From Synechocystis sp. PCC 6803 substr. PCC-P (GTDB taxonomy: Bacteria; Cyanobacteriota; Cyanobacteriia; Cyanobacteriales; Microcystaceae), in contig NC_017039.1 in assembly GCF_000284455.1 (NCBI RefSeq), positions 1,110,001 to 1,142,000 on the forward strand: a stretch of DNA of 32,000 nucleotides, in the 5' to 3' direction. Each line of letters starts with the position of its first letter. The stretch's first letter is position 1. The translations under genes and the position numbers were made by a program. This document shows positions 1 to 20,262 of the stretch, piece by piece. A model generated the notes under the pieces. The model saw only the letters and a program-made list of their open reading frames with translations, had not been told where the DNA came from and did no database searches.

Positions 1-1299
1 CCTAACACCAATGATTGATGCATCAAAGAGACGCATCATTAGCTCTCGTGAACTGTATTTTTCGCAGAGACTTTTAGCCTTCTCTTCAAGAAGAGCGAGA
101 AATTCATCGACGGAATCATAACGATGTTGCGTTTGTCGCAACGATTCGACAAGATCACCGAAGTAAGGGAAAAGACGACGATATTCTTGCTTAAGATCTT
201 CCACCTTCCAGCTACTGTATCGTTCTTCAGATTCCCTAATAGTATCTTTAGACACTTCTATTGCATCACTAGCTGATCTTTTCTGGCACTCTTGAAGAAA
301 CTGAATTACTTCTCGTGGCCTCAAGAAAGTGCGTTTTACTATGTAATTAAAAGGTGCAATACCACCACGCATATCTCCCTCCTCAAATATCTCATCAACA
401 GATATATTATTAGGAAGTCGAGCATTGATCATATCTTTTAAAAGTTCTGGACTCCAAATTATTTCTTCTTCGATTGCTCTATGCTTATCTTTGTCATCAA
501 ATTGAAGACCTTGATAAATATCTGACCGAAGAAAAGTAATCACATGAATACCTTTTCCTGTAGCCAATGAATATTTATCATTTATTTCTTTAGTTGCTTT
601 AAGAAGTCCAATCATTAAACTTTTTGATACCTCTGAACCATCCCATGAGTCATCGAGGCGATCTATCGCAACTATAACACCAAGGTCATTACATACGGCA
701 TTTATCGCGTCGAGGAGCAAATCAATAACTTGAGGCGTTAACATTTGTTGCTGCTTGTCACGTTCGAATCCAATACCAAACCCAAAAGCTTCAAGATTGA
801 ATGCGTTCAAGCCTTTTAGTAATGTCCTTACAGTATTTGTTGGTGTTGGTGCATTCTCGCCAAAGTTATTTGTAACAAATTTACAGATACGATCTAATGC
901 CTTCCGAGCATTTTCGTCAAGCCTTTCAGGAGACACGTCTAACAAGACTGCTGAGGCATCAACTGCAATAGTAAATTTCCAAGCATTAGTATGAGCCTGT
1001 TCTAAAAGTAAGCCTTGCTCTTGGTAATCTTTCATTGCCCCCCAAGCATATTGATCTGGTGTCATTAAGCTTACTCGAACACTTTCTTTGTAGCGTTCCG
1101 TAGCCAATCGCAAGAGTTGAGTAAAGATTGCAGACTTTCCAGCTCCCTTTCGACCAAGAAAATGGGCACTACGAAAACGAAGAGATTGGTCTACCTGTGG
1201 TGTACTAATGAAGTAGTCCGCTAACCTCCGGTCAGCTTCTGCATCAACTGTGCCAAAATCTAAATCTTTAATAGTAAGACCTTTATCGGATAATTTCAT
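1..1299 (-). CDS. P-loop NTPase, 3' end cut by the window edge (>=433 aa); candidate defence ATPase partnered with the upstream Abi-alpha gene
   Basis: I translated the minus strand by hand from ATG (1299-1297). The frame stays open for all 433 codons to position 1, and it is absent from the ORF track because it has no stop in the window. Walker A is FLGRKGAGKSAIF (aa 47-59, nt ~1132-1155). A Walker B-like motif is GVIVAIDRLDDSWDG (aa ~207-221). A downstream ITFLRSD motif is sensor-like, and the C-terminal part is helical. The gene is AT-rich and lies 140 nt downstream of the Abi-alpha gene on the same strand. Confidence 0.8.
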   Translation of the reverse strand, partial: MKLSDKGLTIKDLDFGTVDAEADRRLADYFISTPQVDQSLRFRSAHFLGRKGAGKSAIFTQLLRLATERYKESVRVSLMTPDQYAWGAMKDYQEQGLLLEQAHTNAWKFTIAVDASAVLLDVSPERLDENARKALDRICKFVTNNFGENAPTPTNTVRTLLKGLNAFNLEAFGFGIGFERDKQQQMLTPQVIDLLLDAINAVCNDLGVIVAIDRLDDSWDGSEVSKSLMIGLLKATKEINDKYSLATGKGIHVITFLRSDIYQGLQFDDKDKHRAIEEEIIWSPELLKDMINARLPNNISVDEIFEEGDMRGGIAPFNYIVKRTFLRPREVIQFLQECQKRSASDAIEVSKDTIRESEERYSSWKVEDLKQEYRRLFPYFGDLVESLRQTQHRYDSVDEFLALLEEKAKSLCEKYSSRELMMRLFDASIIGVR

Positions 1300-1439
1300 A
1301 TTGATTTCACTGAAAAATTGAAGAATTTACTGTCTTTGTAAGTGGTGCCCGCCGCATAACGCCAAGAGTCAGAAGCAGGTCGAAGTCTATGAAAAGACAG
1401 ATCGCGGCTGCTCTCGTCTTCTACATCTTGATATTAGCT

Positions 1440-2210
1440 CTAGTCCGCGGCCCTTGAATAATAAAAGCGATCTTCAATTGGAAGAACCTCACTCCCGTCG
1501 CTGAGCGTCATTTTACGATCAGTGCAGACTCGCATAAAGTGAATGCCAAATAAGGTGAGTGAGACATGAGCCTTAAAGCTCCTATTTCCATCTTGCATAT
1601 ACCATATACTAATCCTTGCTTCTTCATCGACCGGAGTGTCATCGTATTTATGGATTATCAAGAGGCCCAGACGCTCCAAGTTGTTCAGTGCAACGCTTAT
1701 CTGAACTATATTATATTTACGGGAGTCATTAGCATATGTGAATTCATCCGGTTTTGCCATTACTCTTAAGTGCAGAAGATATAGGACGTTCAACAGTTCA
1801 GCATCGACAATATCAACTTGTTTTAAGACTTCTACAAAAGACTTTGTTGAGTTAGTGCGATCAGATTCTGTTAAAGCAGAGGCAAGTAGGTTTGCCCAGA
1901 GGGTTTGCAGGTTTTCATCATCTTCGGAAAGTGCTGCACCCAGAAGTGGAAGACCAATCCGCAGAGGAAGACTAGAGATTTCTGGATTGCCCCGTTCAAT
2001 TAATATGCGATCCAACTTGTCGCGCAAATGAAGGGCATTGCTAATTTTCCAGTGTTCTGTGTATTGCTTGACAATGTCGCCCAGATCCTGAATCGCCGGA
2101 CCTATAATTTGAGAAATAAATCGAGACAGTTCAGATGTTTTGTCTATGGCATTACTGGTTGCCTTTGCAATCTCCTGCACTGCCTTTGCTGATTCCTCAA
2201 TCTCTGACAT
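1440..2210 (-). CDS. Abi-alpha (Pfam Abi_alpha / DUF4393-like) abortive-infection family protein, 256 aa
   Basis: The ORF-track protein has an N-terminal helical region, IGPAIQDLGDIVKQYTEHWKISNALHLRDKLDRILIERG...LPLRIGLPLLGAALSEDDENLQTLWANLLASAL. This matches my recollection of the Abi_alpha hallmark (P.LE.aS.EdD..Lq.lWAnLLA.A). I do not recognise the C-terminal ~130 aa. A GGAG Shine-Dalgarno sits 4 nt before the ATG. Confidence 0.7.
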   Translation of the reverse strand: MSEIEESAKAVQEIAKATSNAIDKTSELSRFISQIIGPAIQDLGDIVKQYTEHWKISNALHLRDKLDRILIERGNPEISSLPLRIGLPLLGAALSEDDENLQTLWANLLASALTESDRTNSTKSFVEVLKQVDIVDAELLNVLYLLHLRVMAKPDEFTYANDSRKYNIVQISVALNNLERLGLLIIHKYDDTPVDEEARISIWYMQDGNRSFKAHVSLTLFGIHFMRVCTDRKMTLSDGSEVLPIEDRFYYSRAAD

Positions 2211-2238
2211 GGGTCTCCTGTTGGTAAGCTAGCTAAGG

Positions 2239-2287
2239 ATTATACAGAAACTTTTCGTATATCACTCCCAAATAGAATGATTGTAAA
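2239..2287 (-). promoter_or_regulatory. Candidate sigma70-type promoter elements for the Abi-alpha/NTPase operon
   Basis: On the minus strand there is a perfect TATAAT (2244-2239) about 28 nt upstream of the ATG at 2210. An alternative pair is TTTACA (2287-2282), a 17-nt spacer, then TGATAT (2264-2259). This is a sequence pattern only, with no transcript data. Confidence 0.3.
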
Positions 2288-2327: not shown

Positions 2328-2488
2328 CTATGACCTATCAGTTTCAAGTGAGTTCAAATCTTGTGGATGAATAGTTGTAATACCTGATATACCAATAAAG
2401 TTGCTTGGATTGAGGGTCAAAAGATGTGTAATTCTATTTGCAAGCATAATCGCATAACGACATTGGTATCAAGCAAATATCGCGTCAT
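2328..2488 (-). pseudogene. vapC: vapC-like PIN-domain toxin remnant (internal deletion plus frameshift)
   Basis: The ATG (2488-2486) overlaps the antitoxin TGA in the classic ATGA arrangement. It reads MTRYLLDTNVV..., a PIN N-terminal motif with the catalytic Asp, and stops after 23 codons at 2417. A second frame reads YAIMLANRITHLLTLNPSNFIGISGITTIHPQDL...*, ending at 2328, which resembles a VapC C-terminus (LvT.N..dF..I.GL). The total is ~160 nt against ~400 nt for an intact PIN gene. Confidence 0.6.
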
Positions 2489-2730
2489 TCTTCGTAAATA
2501 CTGTCGCGATCAAAAGCTTCGTCGGTTAAACTTGGGCTACCTTTAGCAAGTTGCGAAACCCATTCACGAAATTCTCTAGCCCTGTCGGATGGCGTTGCTT
2601 TTTGCCAAAATGGAAGAGACGATGCAACTTGTTTAGACTGAAACTCAATGAAAGCCATGAAATCAGCAATTTTTTCAACTTGCTCATCATTCAGTTCGTC
2701 TAATTTTTCTTTTAGATTTTCTCTCAGCAT
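2485..2730 (-). CDS. Type II antitoxin, DUF2281/VapB-like, 81 aa
   Basis: The N-terminus MLRENLKEKLDELNDEQVEKIADFMAFIEF and the C-terminus SLTDEAFDRDSIYEE match the pattern I recall for cyanobacterial PIN-associated antitoxins. The stop codon overlaps the start of the vapC remnant. Confidence 0.65.
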   Translation of the reverse strand: MLRENLKEKLDELNDEQVEKIADFMAFIEFQSKQVASSLPFWQKATPSDRAREFREWVSQLAKGSPSLTDEAFDRDSIYEE

Positions 2731-14325: not shown

Positions 14326-17300
14326 TTAGAACTGTTTCTCATAGCGGATGATGAACTGGCTGAAATTGTAATCGTAGGTAAAACGCATATATCCCTTATC
14401 TTCCACTTCATAGATCGCTTCGAGGAAAGGCACCACCCGGAAATCGGTGCTTTTAATCTTGTCGCTGATGGCGGTTTCCACATCGTAGACCAATCCCTGG
14501 AAAATCATCGGGATCGCTAACTGGGTAATGCCCACCTGTAATAACTGGCTAGAGTTTTTCCCCTGGAGTGCATCCACTAGGACAATGACCTGTTCTCCCA
14601 ACAGGCGGACAATTTCCCCTTCGGTGCGGGGAGGACTGCTGGTCAAACTCAGGGCCGGATTACTGAAAATTTGCTCATTTTGCACCCCCTGGGCGGCCAG
14701 GATTTGTAGGCAACGGGAAAGGCGATCGAGCTGAAATTCGTCGAAACTACCCACCCCCGTCAGCGGCCGAAAAGTAACAGTAGGGTCACAAACAGCGCTG
14801 TAGCGGGGATTAATGTTGGGTAAAATCTGGCTCAAACTGCCGTCAATGGTCAGGCGCACATCAATCCGTTCAATTTGGTTCAGGCTGTCGTCGGGATATT
14901 CATTGGTTTCCTGGGAGCGCATGCGGGCCGACTGGGGCAAGTCTGACACAATAGTACGCATAGCAATGTTCAAGCTGGGATTAATTAACTCCTCGTTGGG
15001 AGAAAACGTAATCGTGTTGGGGGCCCGGCGATCGAGCAAAAAGCGGGTATCAAGAAAGCTGACCCGACCTCGGTCGAGGCTAATGGTGCCATCGGCCCTT
15101 AGATCATCGAAGTTGGTCAGGGGGCCATTAACTGTGAGCCCACCACCAAAGTTAAAAACGTAGAGGGGTTCCTGCTCGATATGCAGATTGTCCAGGGTGA
15201 TACGCAGATTATTTAACTGGGGCTCCACCATTGGCGATCGCCTCGTCCCTTTGAACCAACCTAATCTAGTACGTAGTTCCGCAATGCGACTGGGCTGATT
15301 CTCCAAACTGCGATCGGGCACAAAAAATCGGCCGTTGGCCAGGGCCACATCCCCCGTCAAACTGGGGGCCAGGGCAGAACCCTGGACGGTGACAAACCCC
15401 GCCAAATTACCTTGGTAGAGATTGGGAATGGTGATATTAGTGGGTTTAATGCTCACCTGAAGCGGATTTTCCAAATCTGGCTGGGGCTCAAACAGGGGTA
15501 AAATTCCCGCCACCTCAATACGGCTTTGATCCAGTTGTCCTGTTAATTGCTCAATGGCGATCGTGGTGTTGTTAAACAGAATTTCCCCATCCACCTGCAC
15601 CGGGGTTGGTAGGGCAGCACTCCTGATCTGGGCTCCGTTGAGACTGACTTTCCCCAAAGCCCTGAGGTCAGAAATGCCAATGCCATTCCTTTGGTCAATT
15701 TCCCCTTCCACTTTCAGATCTGCGGATCCTTCCCCACCAAGCCAGACCAATTGCTCTTGACTGACCACGTCCAATAACTCCAAGGAATTGGGGGGAATTT
15801 TGAATTCAGCACTAAAAGTATTTGGCCCTTCCGCAGTTTTAGCTTCCTGGGGATTCCAATAAATAGGCACATCGGCCCTTAGGTAGAGGGGAGAAGCTTC
15901 CGAAGTGACCAATTGCAATAAATTGTTTTGGTAATCAAATCTGCCCCCCACCTCTTCCGGCACCGGCCTGGCGTTGAGGGTGATCTGGTCAAACTCAAAC
16001 TGCCCCGATAGGTTAGGGCCAGCGGCGGTTCGGGCAAAGCTTCCTTGGGCATTAAGGCGAGCCCCAAAGGCAGAGGGCATTTCCACAAAGGAGTCCAGAT
16101 TATTCAGATTAAAATCCTTAATCGACCATTGCAATTGACTTTTTTCTAGGGAGAAAATTCCTTCGGCCCCCAAGCGAGATTCTTCAATCTGCACAAAGGA
16201 AGGTAGTAAGGCCAGACGGCCATCGGCAAATTTGGCTTCAAGTTGAAACTGTTCGATGGGCAGAAAACGGGTTTCATTCATCACTAGCCCAATGGGGGGC
16301 ACGATGTTGGGGAAGGGCCCCTGGGGATACCAACTCCAATTTTTGCCCTGTACTTTGAGAGCAAGGGCCGGATCTCGCAGGGTGCCATTCAGATTAAGGG
16401 CTGCATCGAAATTACCCTGAACATTTAACTGGGTCGGTACGCCCCCCCGTTCGTACTGCTGGGCGAGGGCGATAATACGTTGGTCAATGACATAAAGGAG
16501 ATTAAGTTGATTTTCCAGTGCCCCATCGGGGTTACCCAAACTGAGAGGGCCAATGGTATCCGCTAATTCTTTAGGGGTAGATTCCAAACCGGTGAGCCGC
16601 AGTAGGGATCCCACATCGGAAATGTTGGCCGCCGCTAGCAAGGGGGCAATATCACCATCTTTGACGTTTACCCTAGCTTCGATGGCTTCGGTTCTGAAGT
16701 TCAGTGACCCCTGGGCTTGGTATTGGCCAAGAGCGGTTTTAAGCTGGCCTTGTTTGAGTTGTAGGGTTTGATTTTGGTAAGCCAGGGCCGCAGTTACTTC
16801 ACCGATCGCCGTGGTGCCAAGGGTAACGCCATCAATAGCTAAATTACCTTGGCCGTGGCCGTTGCGGAGGTTAACCACTAGGTCGGCGTTAAAGTTGCCA
16901 CCCAGTTGCTCGACAATTTGATAACGTAGACCCGGGCGGAGATCCAACAGAGCGACGGGAAAATCCGCCACTTCCATGGCCAGGCGATCGCCGTTGAGTT
17001 TGCCCTGGGCGAGGATGGGTTTTTCCCGTTCATAGGCTTGGCGCAGATTAAAGCTGGTGGGGAGATAGGGGAAGAGGCAATTGCCCCGGCAGGGTTGGAG
17101 GTTTACTGCTAGGCGATCAACTTGTCCCTGGAGATCCAGTAGGACATTTTGGTTTAACTGCACCGCCAGGGGGCCCCGCAATTGGGGTTCAAAGCCAAAA
17201 CCATTAACGGCTAAATTGTTGACCGCCAAATTACCAGCCAGTTTTAAATCCCCAAGCCCTGTGACATTGCGTCCTGTTAATTGGCCAGTAAATTGACTAC

Positions 17301-20262
17301 TACCCTCCAGGGCCAAAGCTTGGGGACGAAATTCCGGTGCTAAGGGTAGTTGAGTTAACAGGGCATTAACGGGCAGTTGGGCAAAACTCAGGCCATTGCG
17401 GACATTGAGATTGACATTGGTTAATGCGGGTCGTTGATTAAAACTGCCCACACTTATCTTGCCCTGGGCAGAAACGGTTTGCTCCCCACTGCGGAACAAC
17501 GCCTGTTGTACTGTGACGGGAATGGCCTCCAAGTTTCCATCATTGGTAAATACATTGCCCAAGTTGCCCGCCAGCTTAACTTCTCCCTCCACTGGGGCAA
17601 GGGATACTCCATCGGTGCCGCCGTACTGAGCCAGAACGGGATTGAGGTTAATATCCTTGGCGGTGAGCCGACTTTGCCAGGCTAAATTTTTCAGAGCACT
17701 GACACTGGTTACAGTACCTCCGGCAACTTCCAAATCTACATTGGCGATCGCCGCTACTCGACTCAGATCCGGTTGAGCTTGCACCAAATCTGCTAAGTTT
17801 ACCCCCAGAGAAATTCGGCCCTTTTCCACCTGGGCCGGGAAGGGAATTTCTGGAGCTAGGGCATTGAGGGGAATGGCCACCACATTGGCGATCGCCGCCA
17901 GGTTGCCATTGAGCAAAGAACCGTTCACCGCTACGGGGCCATTGGCCACGGTTAGGTTCAATTGTCCTTGGCCTTGGAGACGGTTGAGGTCAAAACTGCG
18001 TAAAGCTTGCCAGGTGTTAATGTCCCCTACAAAAGCTTGGGCTTGGATTTCTCCGTTGTTCAACCTAGCCGCCACTGGTAACTGGAGCAAAAAGGTATTG
18101 AGAGAAATGGCTCCGAGATTGGCATTGGTTTGCACGGTGCCCTCCGCCAGTTGGGCATTGGCCGTAACTCGGCGATCGTCCACTAGGGCGGTGAACTGGG
18201 TACGACCTTCTATCTGTCCCAGGGGTAATTGCCCAGCGAGTAAGGGGGCTAACGGTAATTGGCTTTGGGCGGTGAGTTGGCTTAGGGCCACCGGAGCGGC
18301 TAAAGCAGGCAAGTAGTTATTAACGGCTATATTATTGGCTGCCACCTCAGCCTGGATTTGACCCCCTTGGAGACTGGCATTGATGGTGGCGGTTTGTTGG
18401 TTACTGGTTAATTGCAGTTCGGCATTGCCCTGCCAACGGTTGGGATCAAAAGTAAAAATTTCCCCACTCACATTGCCTTCGCCCCGATTGAGGGTGAGGG
18501 GTTGGGCCGCCAGTTGGGGTAAACAAAAATTACTTTTTTCCAAGCCACAAAGGGTTTGCAAAAAAGGTTGCAGGGGGAACTGGGTCGTATTCCAGCGGGC
18601 TTGCCAACGATCCTGGGCAAAATTGGCTTGGCCCTGCACGTTGAAAGAGCCTTCGTTGGTGCTTATCTGCGCTCCAGTTAAGGTCAATCGAGGGCCCGCC
18701 AAATTAGCTTCTCCCCTGGTGCTTAAGTTAAGACGACCCTGGCGATCGCCGTTGGTGGTTTGCCATTGCACATTGAACCGGGGATTGCCCAACGTGCCCC
18801 CCGCTTGGCCCGAAAAACCCAGGTTACCAACTTCTACCTCTTGCAAATTCAGGTCATAGGTATTTAACAAAGCCATGGTGGCGATCACCCCGGAGACTTG
18901 CCCGGCCACGGGAATGGTTTGCCATCGCCATTGGTCTGCTTCTGGGGTTAACAATTGGCGCAGTTTCCAAGGGGACTGGACCCGGGCCTGAATTTCTCCT
19001 CCACTGGTGGGGCGTAAACTGACATTGACTAAAGCAATTTGGTCTAAATCCGCCTGGAAATTTACCCCTAGGCGATCCAAAGGAACCCGGTCCACAGTTA
19101 CTGCAGCTACATTGGTTAACTGGCCCTGGAGTTGGGGGCTGGTGAGGGTTCCTTGCAATTGTCCCTGGGCTTGGACTTGTCCTGTGATGGGTAATGGTAG
19201 GGGCACCGCAATGGTGTCGAGGAAAGCGGCAGTGTCAATGGCCTTGGTGGTGAATTGGAGATCGTAGCCCGATCGCCAATCAATGGTGCCCTGGAGAGCA
19301 GCATTAAGGGGGCCAAGGTTGATCAGGCCCTGGTTAATCTGCAACTTTTGTCCGGTAAAACCTAGGTCTAAACCCACTTGCAAAGGAGCTTTAACCTTAT
19401 CGATGCGGGCCTGCAGTTGCTTCAACTCGACATTGCCGAGAGTTTGTAAAGCGGACCACTGTTGCCAACTAGGTAAACTGCCCCGCACCTGGCCAGAAAT
19501 TTCTCCGGTTTCCAAGGCCACTGGTAAAGGAGGTAATAGGCTGGCTAAAGCCGGTAAATCGAGGCGATTAATGGTGACATTGGTTTGACTTTCCCCCGTG
19601 TTGAGCACCGTTTGCCCCTGGGCCTGGAGATCACTGCCCAGGGATTGCACCCCCAAGTCGTAGCTAACAGTTTGGCGATCGCCTTGGCGTCGATATTGAT
19701 AACCTCCTTGACCGGCTGCAGTGATTTGTACTGGCTGTTGCAAACCTTGGGGTAACAGTTGCAATTGGGCATTTTGTACATTAACTCCCACCGTTAAATC
19801 CAGAGGCAGGGAAAAGGGTTTGTCCCCCTCCGGTAACTTAATGGTGGTCCATTGCCCCGTGGGTTTTTGCTCCAGGTTCACCTGGGGATTAATGATGGTG
19901 GCCCTAACTTCCACCGGTTGTCCCACCAGGAAAGGGAGGGGATTGACATCTATCTCAATGGCTTCAATGGCGATCGCCGTGGCATCATCAACGGTCCGGG
20001 GCAGGGAAGAAGCCCCAAGGCGCACCCCCAGTAAACGAAAATCTTCCACCGGGCCAATGTCCACCGGCCGACCCAACAATCTGGATAATTCCGACTCCAA
20101 AAACGGTGATGCTTCCCGGTAGGCCAGGTGTTGTCCCCCCAGATATAGGCCCGTACCAACCACCGTCAGTCCCCCTAGGGTGATCAAGGTGCTGGGTCTA
20201 GTTAGCCAACGTCTCAATTTGGCGATCGCCCCCGCACTGTGAGGGGAAGGATTATTGCTCAT
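14326..20262 (-). CDS. TamB / TIC236-like translocation-and-assembly-module protein (DUF490 C-terminus), 1978 aa
   Basis: It has a single N-terminal TM anchor (LITLGGLTVVGTGLYLGG). The body is very long, Q/G/N/L-rich and beta-strand-repetitive. The C-terminal block (LRADGTISLDRGRVSFLDTRF...IRYEKQF) looks like DUF490. Size and architecture fit cyanobacterial TamB homologues. Confidence 0.85.
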   Translation of the reverse strand: MSNNPSPHSAGAIAKLRRWLTRPSTLITLGGLTVVGTGLYLGGQHLAYREASPFLESELSRLLGRPVDIGPVEDFRLLGVRLGASSLPRTVDDATAIAIEAIEIDVNPLPFLVGQPVEVRATIINPQVNLEQKPTGQWTTIKLPEGDKPFSLPLDLTVGVNVQNAQLQLLPQGLQQPVQITAAGQGGYQYRRQGDRQTVSYDLGVQSLGSDLQAQGQTVLNTGESQTNVTINRLDLPALASLLPPLPVALETGEISGQVRGSLPSWQQWSALQTLGNVELKQLQARIDKVKAPLQVGLDLGFTGQKLQINQGLINLGPLNAALQGTIDWRSGYDLQFTTKAIDTAAFLDTIAVPLPLPITGQVQAQGQLQGTLTSPQLQGQLTNVAAVTVDRVPLDRLGVNFQADLDQIALVNVSLRPTSGGEIQARVQSPWKLRQLLTPEADQWRWQTIPVAGQVSGVIATMALLNTYDLNLQEVEVGNLGFSGQAGGTLGNPRFNVQWQTTNGDRQGRLNLSTRGEANLAGPRLTLTGAQISTNEGSFNVQGQANFAQDRWQARWNTTQFPLQPFLQTLCGLEKSNFCLPQLAAQPLTLNRGEGNVSGEIFTFDPNRWQGNAELQLTSNQQTATINASLQGGQIQAEVAANNIAVNNYLPALAAPVALSQLTAQSQLPLAPLLAGQLPLGQIEGRTQFTALVDDRRVTANAQLAEGTVQTNANLGAISLNTFLLQLPVAARLNNGEIQAQAFVGDINTWQALRSFDLNRLQGQGQLNLTVANGPVAVNGSLLNGNLAAIANVVAIPLNALAPEIPFPAQVEKGRISLGVNLADLVQAQPDLSRVAAIANVDLEVAGGTVTSVSALKNLAWQSRLTAKDINLNPVLAQYGGTDGVSLAPVEGEVKLAGNLGNVFTNDGNLEAIPVTVQQALFRSGEQTVSAQGKISVGSFNQRPALTNVNLNVRNGLSFAQLPVNALLTQLPLAPEFRPQALALEGSSQFTGQLTGRNVTGLGDLKLAGNLAVNNLAVNGFGFEPQLRGPLAVQLNQNVLLDLQGQVDRLAVNLQPCRGNCLFPYLPTSFNLRQAYEREKPILAQGKLNGDRLAMEVADFPVALLDLRPGLRYQIVEQLGGNFNADLVVNLRNGHGQGNLAIDGVTLGTTAIGEVTAALAYQNQTLQLKQGQLKTALGQYQAQGSLNFRTEAIEARVNVKDGDIAPLLAAANISDVGSLLRLTGLESTPKELADTIGPLSLGNPDGALENQLNLLYVIDQRIIALAQQYERGGVPTQLNVQGNFDAALNLNGTLRDPALALKVQGKNWSWYPQGPFPNIVPPIGLVMNETRFLPIEQFQLEAKFADGRLALLPSFVQIEESRLGAEGIFSLEKSQLQWSIKDFNLNNLDSFVEMPSAFGARLNAQGSFARTAAGPNLSGQFEFDQITLNARPVPEEVGGRFDYQNNLLQLVTSEASPLYLRADVPIYWNPQEAKTAEGPNTFSAEFKIPPNSLELLDVVSQEQLVWLGGEGSADLKVEGEIDQRNGIGISDLRALGKVSLNGAQIRSAALPTPVQVDGEILFNNTTIAIEQLTGQLDQSRIEVAGILPLFEPQPDLENPLQVSIKPTNITIPNLYQGNLAGFVTVQGSALAPSLTGDVALANGRFFVPDRSLENQPSRIAELRTRLGWFKGTRRSPMVEPQLNNLRITLDNLHIEQEPLYVFNFGGGLTVNGPLTNFDDLRADGTISLDRGRVSFLDTRFLLDRRAPNTITFSPNEELINPSLNIAMRTIVSDLPQSARMRSQETNEYPDDSLNQIERIDVRLTIDGSLSQILPNINPRYSAVCDPTVTFRPLTGVGSFDEFQLDRLSRCLQILAAQGVQNEQIFSNPALSLTSSPPRTEGEIVRLLGEQVIVLVDALQGKNSSQLLQVGITQLAIPMIFQGLVYDVETAISDKIKSTDFRVVPFLEAIYEVEDKGYMRFTYDYNFSQFIIRYEKQF

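What the first reader, a model, noticed from the sequence alone, without database searches (positions are those of the whole stretch)
1..2210. Abi-alpha (DUF4393-like) + P-loop NTPase two-gene operon: candidate uncharacterised defence module
Two same-strand genes are separated by 140 nt.

- The upstream 256-aa protein carries what I recognise as the Abi_alpha hallmark (LPLLGAALSEDDENLQTLWANLLASAL, after a helical N-terminus). Its C-terminal ~130 aa I cannot place.
- The downstream ORF is at least 433 aa, open to the window edge, and is missing from the ORF track. It has a clean Walker A (GRKGAGKS) and a Walker B-like motif (VIVAIDRLDD), then a helical C-terminal region.

Both genes are AT-rich, HIP1-free and adjacent to a decayed toxin-antitoxin locus, which is typical defence-island context. 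AbiAlpha is known to me only as a single-gene lactococcal prophage abortive-infection determinant. I know of no named system that pairs it with this kind of NTPase. The pairing and any defence role are inference.
Basis: partly seen in the sequence, partly recalled or inferred. Interest (0 to 1): 0.8.

Follow-up and report, generated by a model that had tools for sequence, protein, structure and literature searches.

The report
Two separate defence-type integron cassettes
The two neighbouring genes (sll1272 and sll1273 of Synechocystis PCC 6803) are not a new two-gene immune system: they are two separately mobile single-gene cassettes, probably anti-phage, joined at a decayed integron recombination site in a strain-variable slot of the chromosome.

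Summary
On the minus strand lie sll1272 (256 aa, window 1440-2210) and sll1273 (474 aa; its first 433 codons are window 1-1299), 140 nt apart. Both are AT-rich and HIP1-free.

Domain calls hold:
- sll1272 is an Abi_alpha protein (Pfam 89 bits; PADLOC candidate PDC-S47).
- sll1273 is a "P-loop ATPase, Sll1717 family" (NCBIfam 259 bits). It has an Orc1/Cdc6/BrxC-like AAA+ fold and is a distant relative of the validated single-gene E. coli system DS-41.

The two-gene-system reading fails:
- None of 26 informative loci with sll1273 homologues carries an Abi_alpha.
- None of five contexts of sll1272 homologues carries the ATPase.
- The spacer holds a decayed integron attC site (51.5 bits, E 1e-12).
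- Homology to a solo ATPase gene in Nodosilinea begins exactly at that site's GTTATGC core.
- In an Opitutales genome the ATPase sits alone between two attC sites. In Klebsiella it sits alone in a P2-prophage hotspot.
- Other Synechocystis strains carry a TIR/SEFIR gene or a DUF6602 gene in the same slot.

Verdict: two independent single-gene cassettes of integron origin, probably defensive. Moderate interest.

The parts
1..1299 (-). sll1273, first 433 of 474 codons (the gene continues left of the window): P-loop ATPase of the Sll1717 family, with an AAA+ Orc1/Cdc6/BrxC-like fold
   Evidence: Translation and full length. NCBIfam NF047389 scores 258.8 bits against a cut-off of 75. AF2 model pLDDT is 87.9. 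Foldseek matches 2qby_A Orc1/Cdc6 (E 4e-5), 9zll BrxC (E 7e-5) and RdrA.
1300..1439 (-). 140-nt spacer. It is a mosaic: its 5' ~80 nt (mRNA sense) travel with the sll1272 cassette and its 3' ~60 nt travel with the sll1273 cassette.
   Evidence: blastn limits of homology to the Abi cassette in L038 and to the solo ATPase in Nodosilinea L006; alignment.
1350..1445 (-). Decayed integron attC site following the sll1272 stop codon. R'' is AGCTAAT at 1433-1439, the paired arms are imperfect, and R' is GTTATGC at 1354-1360.
   Evidence: Covariance model of a freshwater integron attC family: 51.5 bits, E 1e-12, full-length match, and the only hit in the 32-kb window. It no longer folds better than shuffles (z +1.2).
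1354..1360 (-). R' core GTTATGC: the junction between the sll1272 cassette and the sll1273 cassette (expected crossover G|TT)
   Evidence: Homology to the Nodosilinea solo ATPase locus begins at exactly this G (L003 10851). Nodosilinea has the same GTTATGC at the end of a different, weak attC-like element.
1440..2210 (-). sll1272, a 256-aa Abi_alpha family protein
   Evidence: Pfam PF14337 E 4.2e-25, residues 65-229. PADLOC PDC-S47 E 1.7e-12. Profile match of residues 125-193 to the TubR winged helix, E 2e-4. AF2 pLDDT 81.
2231..2236 (-). TTAGCT: 5' end of the sll1272 cassette, the half-core left from the preceding R' site
   Evidence: The same GTTAGCT lies at the end of the preceding attC in the metagenomic array L037/L038. 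Homology to that array starts 21 nt before the ATG.
2237..2249 (-). TTCTGTATAATCC: promoter-like motif (-10 TATAAT at 2238-2243) that ends the strain-conserved flank exactly where the variable cargo begins
   Evidence: It is conserved in front of different cargo in three Synechocystis strains. The identical 13-mer lies in front of a solo ATPase orthologue in L172. Promoter activity is inferred, not shown.
2328..2488 (-). vapC (PIN) toxin remnant, frameshifted and internally deleted
   Evidence: Three-frame translation. It is conserved at 90-93% nt identity in strains CACIAM 05 and S. salina.
2485..2730 (-). 81-aa antitoxin-like ORF; the last conserved gene before the variable slot
   Evidence: ORF. 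Present in several Synechocystis lineages. No Pfam hit.

Best explanation
sll1272 and sll1273 are two independent single-gene cassettes of integron origin. They lie side by side in a strain-variable slot of the Synechocystis PCC 6803 chromosome, between a decayed vapBC locus and lspA. They are not a cooperating pair.

Shown here:
1. The sll1272 cassette keeps its own, now decayed, attC recombination site.
2. The sll1273 cassette begins at the GTT core of that site.
3. Elsewhere each gene occurs without the other: in integron arrays, prophage hotspots and defence islands.

Inferred, not shown:
- Each gene is a stand-alone anti-phage determinant.
- Sll1272 would act like Enterococcus Abi-alpha, a single protein that aborts infection by premature lysis or death of the infected cell. 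It has long N-terminal helices followed by a probable winged-helix domain.
- Sll1273 would act like other single-protein ATPase defences such as its distant relative DS-41. It is an Orc1/Cdc6/BrxC-like AAA+ module (Walker A K55, Walker B D213 with the extended D-R-L-D-D, conserved arginines) followed by a helical lid and a small winged-helix-like C-terminus. It would use ATP binding and hydrolysis to switch or oligomerise on a phage-derived nucleic acid or protein. No enzymatic effector domain is detectable.
- In PCC 6803 both genes may be read from the TATAAT promoter of the conserved flank. Any such co-transcription would be a by-product of cassette order, as in integron arrays.
For: Identity:
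- Pfam Abi_alpha scores 89 bits and PDC-S47 matches.
- NF047389 scores 259 bits, and the DS-41 model scores a weak 32 bits aligned in register.

No conserved pairing:
- 31 genome loci carry sll1273 homologues, 23 of them with at least 1 kb upstream. None has an Sll1272-like Abi_alpha and none has a recurrent neighbour.
- The closest homologues are also solo: 90% identity in Nodosilinea L006 and 89% in L172.
- Five distinct contexts of sll1272 homologues have other neighbours: DACNV, an unknown 241-aa gene, terminase, a type III R-M system, and KilA-N.

Cassette structure:
- An ~85-nt element follows three consecutive genes, including the 80%-identical Abi gene, in L037-39.
- Its consensus is GCCTAAC...GTTAGGC, the canonical attC R''/R' cores. 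It occurs in more than 120 freshwater contigs.
- It forms same-strand arrays of up to 6 copies.
- It occurs on contigs that encode integron integrases: TIGR02249 scores 456 and 441 bits against a cut-off of 265.
- The Synechocystis copy scores 51.5 bits.
- Homology to the Nodosilinea solo ATPase starts at the R' G.
- In Opitutales L008 the 76%-identical ATPase is the only ORF between two of seven attC copies.

Defence context:
- The Klebsiella orthologue (70%) is a solo gene between gpA/DinI and the portal gene of P2-like prophages.
- One orthologue abuts Thoeris ThsA/ThsB.
- Abi homologues lie in P2-like and P22-like prophages and next to a type III R-M system.
- The same slot holds a SEFIR/TIR gene in strain CACIAM 05 and a DUF6602 gene in S. 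salina.

Literature:
- Abi-alpha is a single-gene Abi (PMC6356687).
- DS-41 is a validated single-gene system (PMC13092281).
- Integron cassettes often encode single-gene defences, one of them related to Abi-alpha (bioRxiv 10.1101/2024.07.02.601686).
Against: - No functional data exist for either Synechocystis gene.
- The Sll1717 family has no hit in PADLOC v2. Its link to DS-41 is far below that model's cut-off (32 against 370 bits).
- No attC is detectable after sll1273 in Synechocystis.
- No integron integrase lies in the window or in the 20-kb locus L003. The integron origin is therefore a relic inferred by comparison.
- The spacer has no recognisable terminator, so co-transcription, and hence some functional coupling in this one strain, is not excluded.
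- Many neighbours of ATPase orthologues are housekeeping genes. The defence-island association is anecdotal, not statistical.
Confidence: 0.66

Rival explanations
1. Sll1272 (Abi_alpha) and Sll1273 (NTPase) form one new two-gene defence system, co-transcribed as an operon, with one protein sensing and the other executing.
For: The genes are on the same strand, 140 nt apart, with no terminator-like site in the spacer. Both are foreign by composition. Both families are plausibly defensive. Several sll1272 homologues are followed at 105-156 nt by some same-strand gene.
Against: Co-occurrence is 0 of 26 informative ATPase loci and 0 of 5 Abi contexts. The genes downstream of Abi homologues are unrelated to each other. 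The spacer contains an attC relic, and the homology breakpoint falls at its core site. The ATPase is a stand-alone cassette in L008 and a solo gene in a Klebsiella prophage hotspot. GC3 differs between the two genes, 28% against 40%.
Confidence: 0.07
2. Two independent mobile cassettes, but one or both are not anti-phage. For example, the Orc1/Cdc6-like ATPase could serve maintenance or replication of mobile elements or another conflict, or the genes could be silent, decaying cargo in PCC 6803.
For: No experimental phenotype exists. There is no PADLOC hit for the ATPase. The best fold matches include replication initiators. The attC is decayed, no integrase is present, and the adjacent vapC is decayed. 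Many integron cassettes have unknown, non-defence roles.
Against: Both ORFs are intact. The ATPase motifs are invariant over 71 homologues. The ATPase occupies the P2 prophage hotspot, abuts Thoeris, and shares the Synechocystis slot with TIR/SEFIR genes in sister strains. The Abi_alpha family has a demonstrated Abi member.
Confidence: 0.22
3. Ordinary native neighbours: two core Synechocystis genes of unknown function whose adjacency has no mobile-element history.
For: They sit in the chromosome between housekeeping genes (porin, lspA, bioY/bioB).
Against: They are absent from sister strains, which carry different genes in the same slot. GC is low and HIP1 is absent. Orthologues at 70-90% identity occur in unrelated phyla. 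The spacer holds an attC relic.
Confidence: 0.02

Closest known systems
Abi-alpha (EF2833) of Enterococcus faecalis V583 prophage 6; Pfam PF14337 (ex-DUF4393); PADLOC candidate PDC-S47
   Same: Sll1272 scores well above the Pfam threshold. It is of similar length (256 against 272 aa), is a single gene, and has homologues in prophages and defence islands.
   Different: The host is a cyanobacterium. It is carried as an integron-type cassette rather than a prophage moron. No phenotype is known; premature lysis is assumed by analogy only.
DS-41 ('AAA2', WP_033812887.1), a single-gene E. coli anti-phage system validated in the DefensePredictor study
   Same: A single ~470-500-aa protein with the same order of motifs. 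Walker A is G(R/Q)(K/R)GAGKS, the extended Walker B is ID(R/K)LD(D/E), and (S/R)PRE(L/V)I follows in the lid. The NCBIfam DS-41 model aligns in register (res 176-368 to 182-378).
   Different: The score is only 32 bits against a family cut-off of 370, and BLASTP gives 26% identity over 99 residues. Sll1273 is a distant relative and belongs to the separate NCBIfam family NF047389.
Orc1/Cdc6-type AAA+ ATPases and the defence ATPases BrxC (BREX) and RdrA (RADAR)
   Same: Best structural matches of the Sll1273 model: Foldseek probability 0.99-1.0, E 4e-5 to 5e-3. The layout is an ATPase core plus lid plus a small C-terminal helical/winged-helix-like domain.
   Different: TM-scores are low (0.3-0.4) and sequence identity is 9-13%. 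BrxC and RdrA work within multi-gene systems, whereas Sll1273 orthologues are solo.
Integron gene cassettes as stores of single-gene anti-phage systems (sedentary chromosomal integrons; e.g. 'Belisama', a DUF2806 protein related to Abi-alpha, in Vibrio cholerae)
   Same: One ORF plus attC per unit. The content is defence-type, TA cassettes are nearby, and the order of cassettes carries no functional meaning. Sll1272 also has a weak DUF2806 hit.
   Different: In PCC 6803 there is no integrase, only one detectable and decayed attC, and the cassettes sit in an ordinary chromosomal slot behind a local promoter-like motif.
P2-like prophage defence hotspot between the replication gene A and the portal gene Q (described by others; cited from my own knowledge)
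   Same: The 70%-identical Klebsiella orthologue of Sll1273 is the sole cargo gene at that position. A Cellvibrio Sll1272 homologue lies in a P2-like prophage between the regulatory and tail genes.
   Different: The Synechocystis copies are not in a prophage.

Membership tests
Abi_alpha (Pfam PF14337) | Sequence match to the family HMM above the gathering score | tested here: met
   89.3 bits against a cut-off of 29, E 4.2e-25, residues 65-229 matching profile positions 12-196 of 196.
Abi_alpha (Pfam PF14337) | Acts alone as an abortive-infection determinant (premature lysis of infected cells) | not testable with these tools
   Known only for E. faecalis EF2833 (PMC6356687). Variable neighbours of Sll1272 homologues are consistent with solo action.
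P-loop ATPase, Sll1717 family (NCBIfam NF047389) | Whole-protein score above the curated cut-off | tested here: met
   258.8 bits against a cut-off of 75, using only the 433 residues in the window, matching profile positions 1-417 of 454.
DS-41 anti-phage protein (NCBIfam NF053860, equivalog) | Whole-protein score above the curated cut-off | tested here: not met
   32.4 bits against a cut-off of 370. BLASTP E is 0.006 over 99 residues. It is a distant relative, not a member.
Two-gene defence system (Abi_alpha + NTPase) | Conserved co-localisation of homologues of both genes across genomes | tested here: not met
   0 of 31 genome loci, of which 23 have at least 1 kb upstream, plus L172, L173 and the Klebsiella prophages. 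0 of 5 Abi contexts.
Two-gene defence system (Abi_alpha + NTPase) | Match to a named multi-gene system | tested here: not met
   PADLOC-DB v2 gives only PDC-S47 (a single-gene candidate) for Sll1272 and nothing for Sll1273. DefenseFinder was not available.
Integron gene cassette | ORF followed by an attC site: R'' RYYYAAC, imperfect inverted arms with extra bases on the 5' arm, R' GTTRRRY | tested here: met
   For sll1272: CM hit of 51.5 bits, E 1e-12, at window 1350-1445. The cores are decayed to AGCTAAT and GTTATGC. The 80%-identical homologue has an intact copy (73 bits) within an array.
Integron gene cassette | The same for sll1273: its own attC downstream | tested here: inconclusive
   None is detected after sll1273 in Synechocystis or Nodosilinea. 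Its 5' end nevertheless starts at an R' core in both. The Opitutales orthologue is flanked by canonical attC sites on both sides.
Integron gene cassette | attC family associated with an integron integrase and same-strand arrays | tested here: met
   Arrays of 3-6 copies are found in L094, L129, L116 and L055. IntI is found in L086 and L095: TIGR02249 scores 456 and 441 bits against a cut-off of 265.
Active integron in PCC 6803 | intI and attI next to the cassettes | tested here: not met
   tblastn with IntI finds nothing in the 32-kb window or in L003. The attC no longer folds better than shuffled sequence.
AAA+ ATPase, Orc1/Cdc6-like clade | Fold similarity of the ATPase core, lid and C-terminal domain | tested here: met
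   Foldseek matches 2qby_A (E 4e-5) and BrxC 9zll_B (E 7e-5), probability 1.0, though TM is only 0.36-0.41. Clade assignment within AAA+/STAND remains approximate.

The most novel reading that the evidence does not exclude
The Sll1717-family ATPase (NF047389) is an as yet unvalidated, widespread single-gene anti-phage defence family: about 700 cluster representatives at E<=1e-10, found in Cyanobacteria, Proteobacteria, Verrucomicrobia, Actinobacteria and archaea. It travels as an integron cassette and as P2-prophage hotspot cargo. The Synechocystis slot between the vapBC relic and lspA would then be a promoter-equipped landing pad where defence cassettes are exchanged between strains without a resident integrase. 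A still bolder reading is that the two cassettes have become functionally coupled in PCC 6803. That is not excluded, but it is unlikely (about 0.07).
Probability: 0.5. Interest if true: 0.55.

Novelty: new member of a known kind. Interest (0 to 1): 0.4.

Why it matters
- It removes a false lead. The adjacency of an Abi_alpha gene and a P-loop ATPase in a model cyanobacterium is cassette order, not a new two-component immune system.
- It shows that two 'unknown protein' genes of Synechocystis PCC 6803 are integron-derived cargo in a strain-variable slot whose other occupants are TIR/SEFIR and DUF6602 genes. This gives cyanobacterial geneticists a defined, probably dispensable locus and two testable single-gene defence candidates.
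- It flags the Sll1717 ATPase family as a good candidate for experimental validation. It appears as solo cargo in a Klebsiella P2-prophage hotspot, as a stand-alone integron cassette, and as a neighbour of Thoeris.

Tried and rejected
- Rfam searches of the spacer and of the metagenomic arrays found nothing. Rfam seems to hold no attC model, so I built one.
- Folding the spacer as RNA or DNA gave no stable structure in Synechocystis (z +2.0 and +1.2). I therefore rejected a terminator, riboswitch or sRNA reading and call the attC decayed.
- The promoter/terminator scan found nothing in the spacer.
- I looked for an attC after sll1273 with the covariance model (filters off), by alignment with Nodosilinea and by folding. 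None was found.
- Covariation in the attC arms cannot be judged. The seed copies were selected by an exact 18-mer, so the arms are almost invariant.
- PDB sequence searches gave only P-loop noise for Sll1273. Foldseek gave no significant whole-fold match for Sll1272.
- The supplementary transcription-unit tables of the Synechocystis primary-transcriptome paper are not held, so co-transcription could not be checked.
- There is no literature on 'Sll1717' or 'PDC-S47' in the library.
- Neither phage genomes nor plasmids hold close homologues. Plasmids hold only relatives of the ATPase at 22-34% identity. The attC element has no plasmid match.
- The 120 freshwater attC contigs contain no close Abi or ATPase homologue. 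There is one weak ATPase-like hit, in L105.
Full report
**1. What is there**

The window is part of the Synechocystis sp. PCC 6803 chromosome. An exact-sequence look-up finds the 256-aa protein in BA000022.2 and its substrains, and the sources name the two proteins sll1272 and sll1273.

Both genes are on the minus strand:
- sll1272 is window 1440-2210.
- sll1273 starts at the ATG at 1299 and runs off the window after 433 codons. The complete protein is 474 aa.
- The spacer is 140 nt.

One correction: the Walker A lysine is K55, not K54.

Composition supports foreign origin:
- sll1273 is 39.3% GC and sll1272 is 42.8% GC, against 49.6 +/- 2.6% for the rest of the window.
- GC3 is 28% for sll1273 and 40% for sll1272, against 50-57% in the two neighbouring genes.
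- No HIP1 octamer occurs in the first 3091 bases, although there are 32 in the rest.

**2. What the proteins are**

*Sll1272* is a clear Abi_alpha protein. Pfam PF14337 gives E 4e-25 and 89 bits against a cut-off of 29.
- PADLOC's models of the candidate PDC-S47 also match (E 1.7e-12).
- A profile of 25 homologues matches the winged-helix protein TubR over residues 125-193 (E 2e-4).
- The AF2 model (pLDDT 81) shows long N-terminal helices followed by a helix/beta unit. Its only, non-significant, fold neighbours are MarR/ArsR-type winged helices.
- Abi-alpha was defined as a single gene (ef2833, 272 aa) of prophage 6 of Enterococcus faecalis V583. It aborts infection by phage Idefix through premature lysis (PMC6356687). 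It was not defined in Lactococcus.

*Sll1273* has no Pfam domain (AAA_16, E 0.15). It does belong to NCBIfam NF047389, 'P-loop ATPase, Sll1717 family' (259 bits, cut-off 75).
- The family is very well conserved: 62% mean column identity over 71 sequences. Invariant positions include GxKGxGKS, D213-x-L-D-D-x-W, R258-x-D-x-Y, F-D-x-K-D-K-x-R274 and K-R-T-F-x-R-P-R-E.
- The AF2 model is confident (pLDDT 87.9). Its best PDB neighbours are Orc1/Cdc6, the BREX ATPase BrxC and the RADAR ATPase RdrA.
- A weak, in-register match to the NCBIfam model of DS-41 (32 bits, cut-off 370) makes it a distant relative of, not a member of, that family. DS-41 is a validated single-gene E. coli defence system (PMC13092281).
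- No enzymatic effector domain is detectable.
- An exhaustive search finds 1913 cluster representatives at E<=1e-3 and 698 at E<=1e-10. Most are 470-500 aa.

**3. Is the pair a system? No.**

From the ATPase side:
- A scan of one genome per species returned 31 loci with homologues, from 90% identity in the cyanobacterium Nodosilinea down to 32% in Planctomycetota and archaea.
- None contains an Sll1272-like Abi_alpha. The HMM used was built from homologues down to 25% identity.
- All-against-all comparison of neighbouring ORFs finds no neighbour shared by more than two related loci. A Pfam scan of 112 neighbours shows no recurrent partner.
- The two closest relatives are solo: 90% in Nodosilinea L006 and 89% in L172.
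- Further look-ups show the 78% homologue next to Thoeris (ThsA SIR2/STALD plus ThsB TIR).
- The 70% Klebsiella pneumoniae homologue is the only gene between gpA/DinI and the portal gene of P2-like prophages, in at least four assemblies.

From the Abi side, five distinct contexts of Sll1272 homologues (80-43% identity) have something else downstream:
- a DACNV sensor-domain protein,
- an unknown 241-aa protein in a P2-like prophage of Cellvibrio,
- the terminase of a P22-like Delftia prophage,
- a convergent type III R-M system on an integrase island,
- a KilA-N protein in Sulfurimonas.

**4. Why they are neighbours: two integron-type cassettes**

In the metagenomic contigs that carry the 80%-identical Abi gene (L037-L039), an ~85-nt element follows the stop codon of three consecutive same-strand genes.

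An 18-mer from this element retrieves more than 120 freshwater-metagenome contigs.
- Their consensus is GCCTAAC-ATCAAGATRCAGAAGACGGGAGC-(~30 variable)-CCCGCTTCTGATCTTGGC-GTTAGGC.
- These are the canonical attC cores R'' (RYYYAAC) and R' (GTTRRRY), flanking imperfect inverted arms with two extra bases on the 5' arm.
- 98% of the arm positions pair. They are too invariant to test covariation.
- A covariance model finds same-strand arrays of up to six copies spaced 0.7-3.3 kb apart.
- Two contigs with the element encode bona fide integron integrases: TIGR02249, 456 and 441 bits against a cut-off of 265.

The same model hits the Synechocystis spacer with a full-length match at window 1350-1445(-) (51.5 bits, E 1e-12). 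This is the only hit in 32 kb. The copy is decayed: the cores read AGCTAAT and GTTATGC, the 3' arm has a one-base insertion, and the site no longer folds better than shuffles.

The homology breakpoints fit cassette boundaries:
- DNA similarity to the Abi cassette runs from 21 nt before the sll1272 ATG, starting with TTAGCT (the half-core left by the previous site), into the attC.
- Similarity to the Nodosilinea solo ATPase locus (86.5% over 1525 nt) begins at the G of GTTATGC.
- Nodosilinea has the same GTTATGC at the end of a different, weak attC-like element (19.5 bits) that follows an unrelated 149-aa gene.

In an Opitutales MAG (L008), seven same-strand copies of another attC family (R'' GCCCAAC, R' GTTGGGC) delimit single ORFs. 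The 76%-identical ATPase is alone between copies 3 and 4.

The ATPase is therefore demonstrably a stand-alone cassette elsewhere, and the Abi gene likewise.

No attC is detectable after sll1273 in Synechocystis. No integrase lies in the window or in the 20-kb locus. What remains in PCC 6803 is a relic.

**5. The slot**

In Synechocystis sp. CACIAM 05 and S. salina LEGE 06099 the flanks are conserved at 90-95% nt identity. These flanks are the porin gene, the 81-aa gene and the vapC remnant on one side, and lspA-bioY-bioB on the other. Between them lie a 478-aa SEFIR/TIR protein in CACIAM 05 and a 321-aa DUF6602 protein in S. salina.

The conserved flank ends in a promoter-like TATAAT, directly followed by the cargo. 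The 13-mer TTCTGTATAATCC, within about 32 nt of surrounding similarity, recurs in front of the solo ATPase in the unrelated cyanobacterial contig L172. About 0.03 chance matches are expected in the roughly 1 Mb of loci searched (my estimate).

I infer that cargo in this slot is expressed from that promoter. This is not shown.

**6. Mechanism (inference)**

Each gene most probably works alone.
- Sll1272, by family membership, would act as an abortive-infection protein.
- Sll1273 would act as an ATP-driven switch or oligomeriser of the Orc1/Cdc6/BrxC type that recognises a phage nucleic acid or protein.
- The extended Walker B (D-x-L-D-D/E) resembles those of STAND/NACHT and KAP NTPases. This comes from my own knowledge and was not tested.
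- An invariant glycine-rich loop (F-N-L-x-A-F-G-F-G-x-G, residues 167-177) is modelled with low confidence and remains unexplained.

**7. Verdict**

The domain and context interpretation is right. The 'new two-gene system' is not supported.

What remains of interest:
- a well-documented integron-cassette relic in a model cyanobacterium,
- a strain-variable defence slot,
- a good candidate single-gene defence family (Sll1717-type ATPases).

Noticed in passing
window 2226-2255 (left edge of the variable slot); right edge about 285-300 bases left of window base 1 (L003 12495-12513); L048 6474-8100; L049 6513-7568: The stretch between the vapBC relic and lspA is a strain-variable slot. PCC 6803 has sll1272 plus sll1273 there. 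Synechocystis sp. CACIAM 05 has one 478-aa SEFIR/TIR gene. S. salina LEGE 06099 has one 321-aa DUF6602 gene. The flanks are 90-95% identical.
   Followed up: partly
window 2237-2268(-); L172 4905-4937: A ~32-nt motif (GAGTGnTATACnGAAAnnTTCTGTATAATCC) ends exactly where the cargo starts in three Synechocystis strains. It recurs, with an identical 13-mer, in front of a solo ATPase orthologue in an unrelated cyanobacterial contig. It may be a portable promoter or an insertion-site motif.
   Followed up: partly
window 2328-2488(-) and 2485-2730(-): A vapC (PIN) remnant keeps its N- and C-terminal pieces in different frames, and its start overlaps by ATGA the stop of an intact 81-aa antitoxin-like ORF. 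The same decay is shared by three Synechocystis lineages, so it is old.
   Followed up: partly
L050-L169 (freshwater metagenome contigs), e.g. L094 1234-11639, L129, L116; IntI at L086 1780-2988(-) and L095 1-909(+): A very homogeneous attC family (GCCTAAC...CCCGCTTCTGATCTTGGCGTTAGGC) is abundant in lake metagenomes. It forms arrays typical of a sedentary chromosomal integron. On L086 the integrase lies on the same strand as the attC. The host is unknown; a flanking DUF3134 gene in L038 hints at a picocyanobacterium.
   Followed up: partly
L008 1-5390 (Opitutales MAG JAFIGF010000260.1): Seven same-strand copies of a 131-nt attC (R'' GCCCAAC, R' GTTGGGC), spaced 597-1600 nt apart, form a cassette array. 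The Sll1273 orthologue is one of the cassettes.
   Followed up: yes
L174-L177 (Klebsiella pneumoniae P2-like prophages), ATPase at L174 6001-7425: The 70%-identical orthologue of Sll1273 is the sole cargo gene between gpA/DinI and the portal gene. This position is known, from my own knowledge, as a P2 defence hotspot.
   Followed up: partly
Sll1273 residues 149-182 (window about 754-855, minus strand): An invariant glycine-rich loop (FNLxAFGFGxG) is inserted in the ATPase domain and modelled with low confidence (pLDDT 54-66). It is too short for a membrane span. Its role is unknown.
   Followed up: no
sll1273, chromosome 1109887-1110178 (about window 290-580, mapped by me from the locus ranges): A published ChIP-seq study lists an intragenic NtcA-binding peak in sll1273, with lower expression under nitrogen starvation (PMC5714215). 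Its relevance to the gene's function is unknown.
   Followed up: no
L170 4992-7001 and 228 further plasmid records: Distant relatives of Sll1273 (22-26% identity, full length, often ~670 aa) are common on conjugative IncF-type plasmids of Klebsiella and E. coli. In the one locus examined (L170) the gene lies next to a small resolvase gene.
   Followed up: no
L006 4469-5095 and 7516-9554 (Nodosilinea sp. FACHB-131): The 90%-identical solo ATPase is flanked by a 208-aa tyrosine recombinase, a 149-aa membrane protein, a HEAGH metalloprotease-like ORF and a 469-aa unknown ORF. This looks like a small mobile island.
   Followed up: no
window 14326-20262(-): A very long ORF of 1978 aa, not examined.
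   Followed up: no
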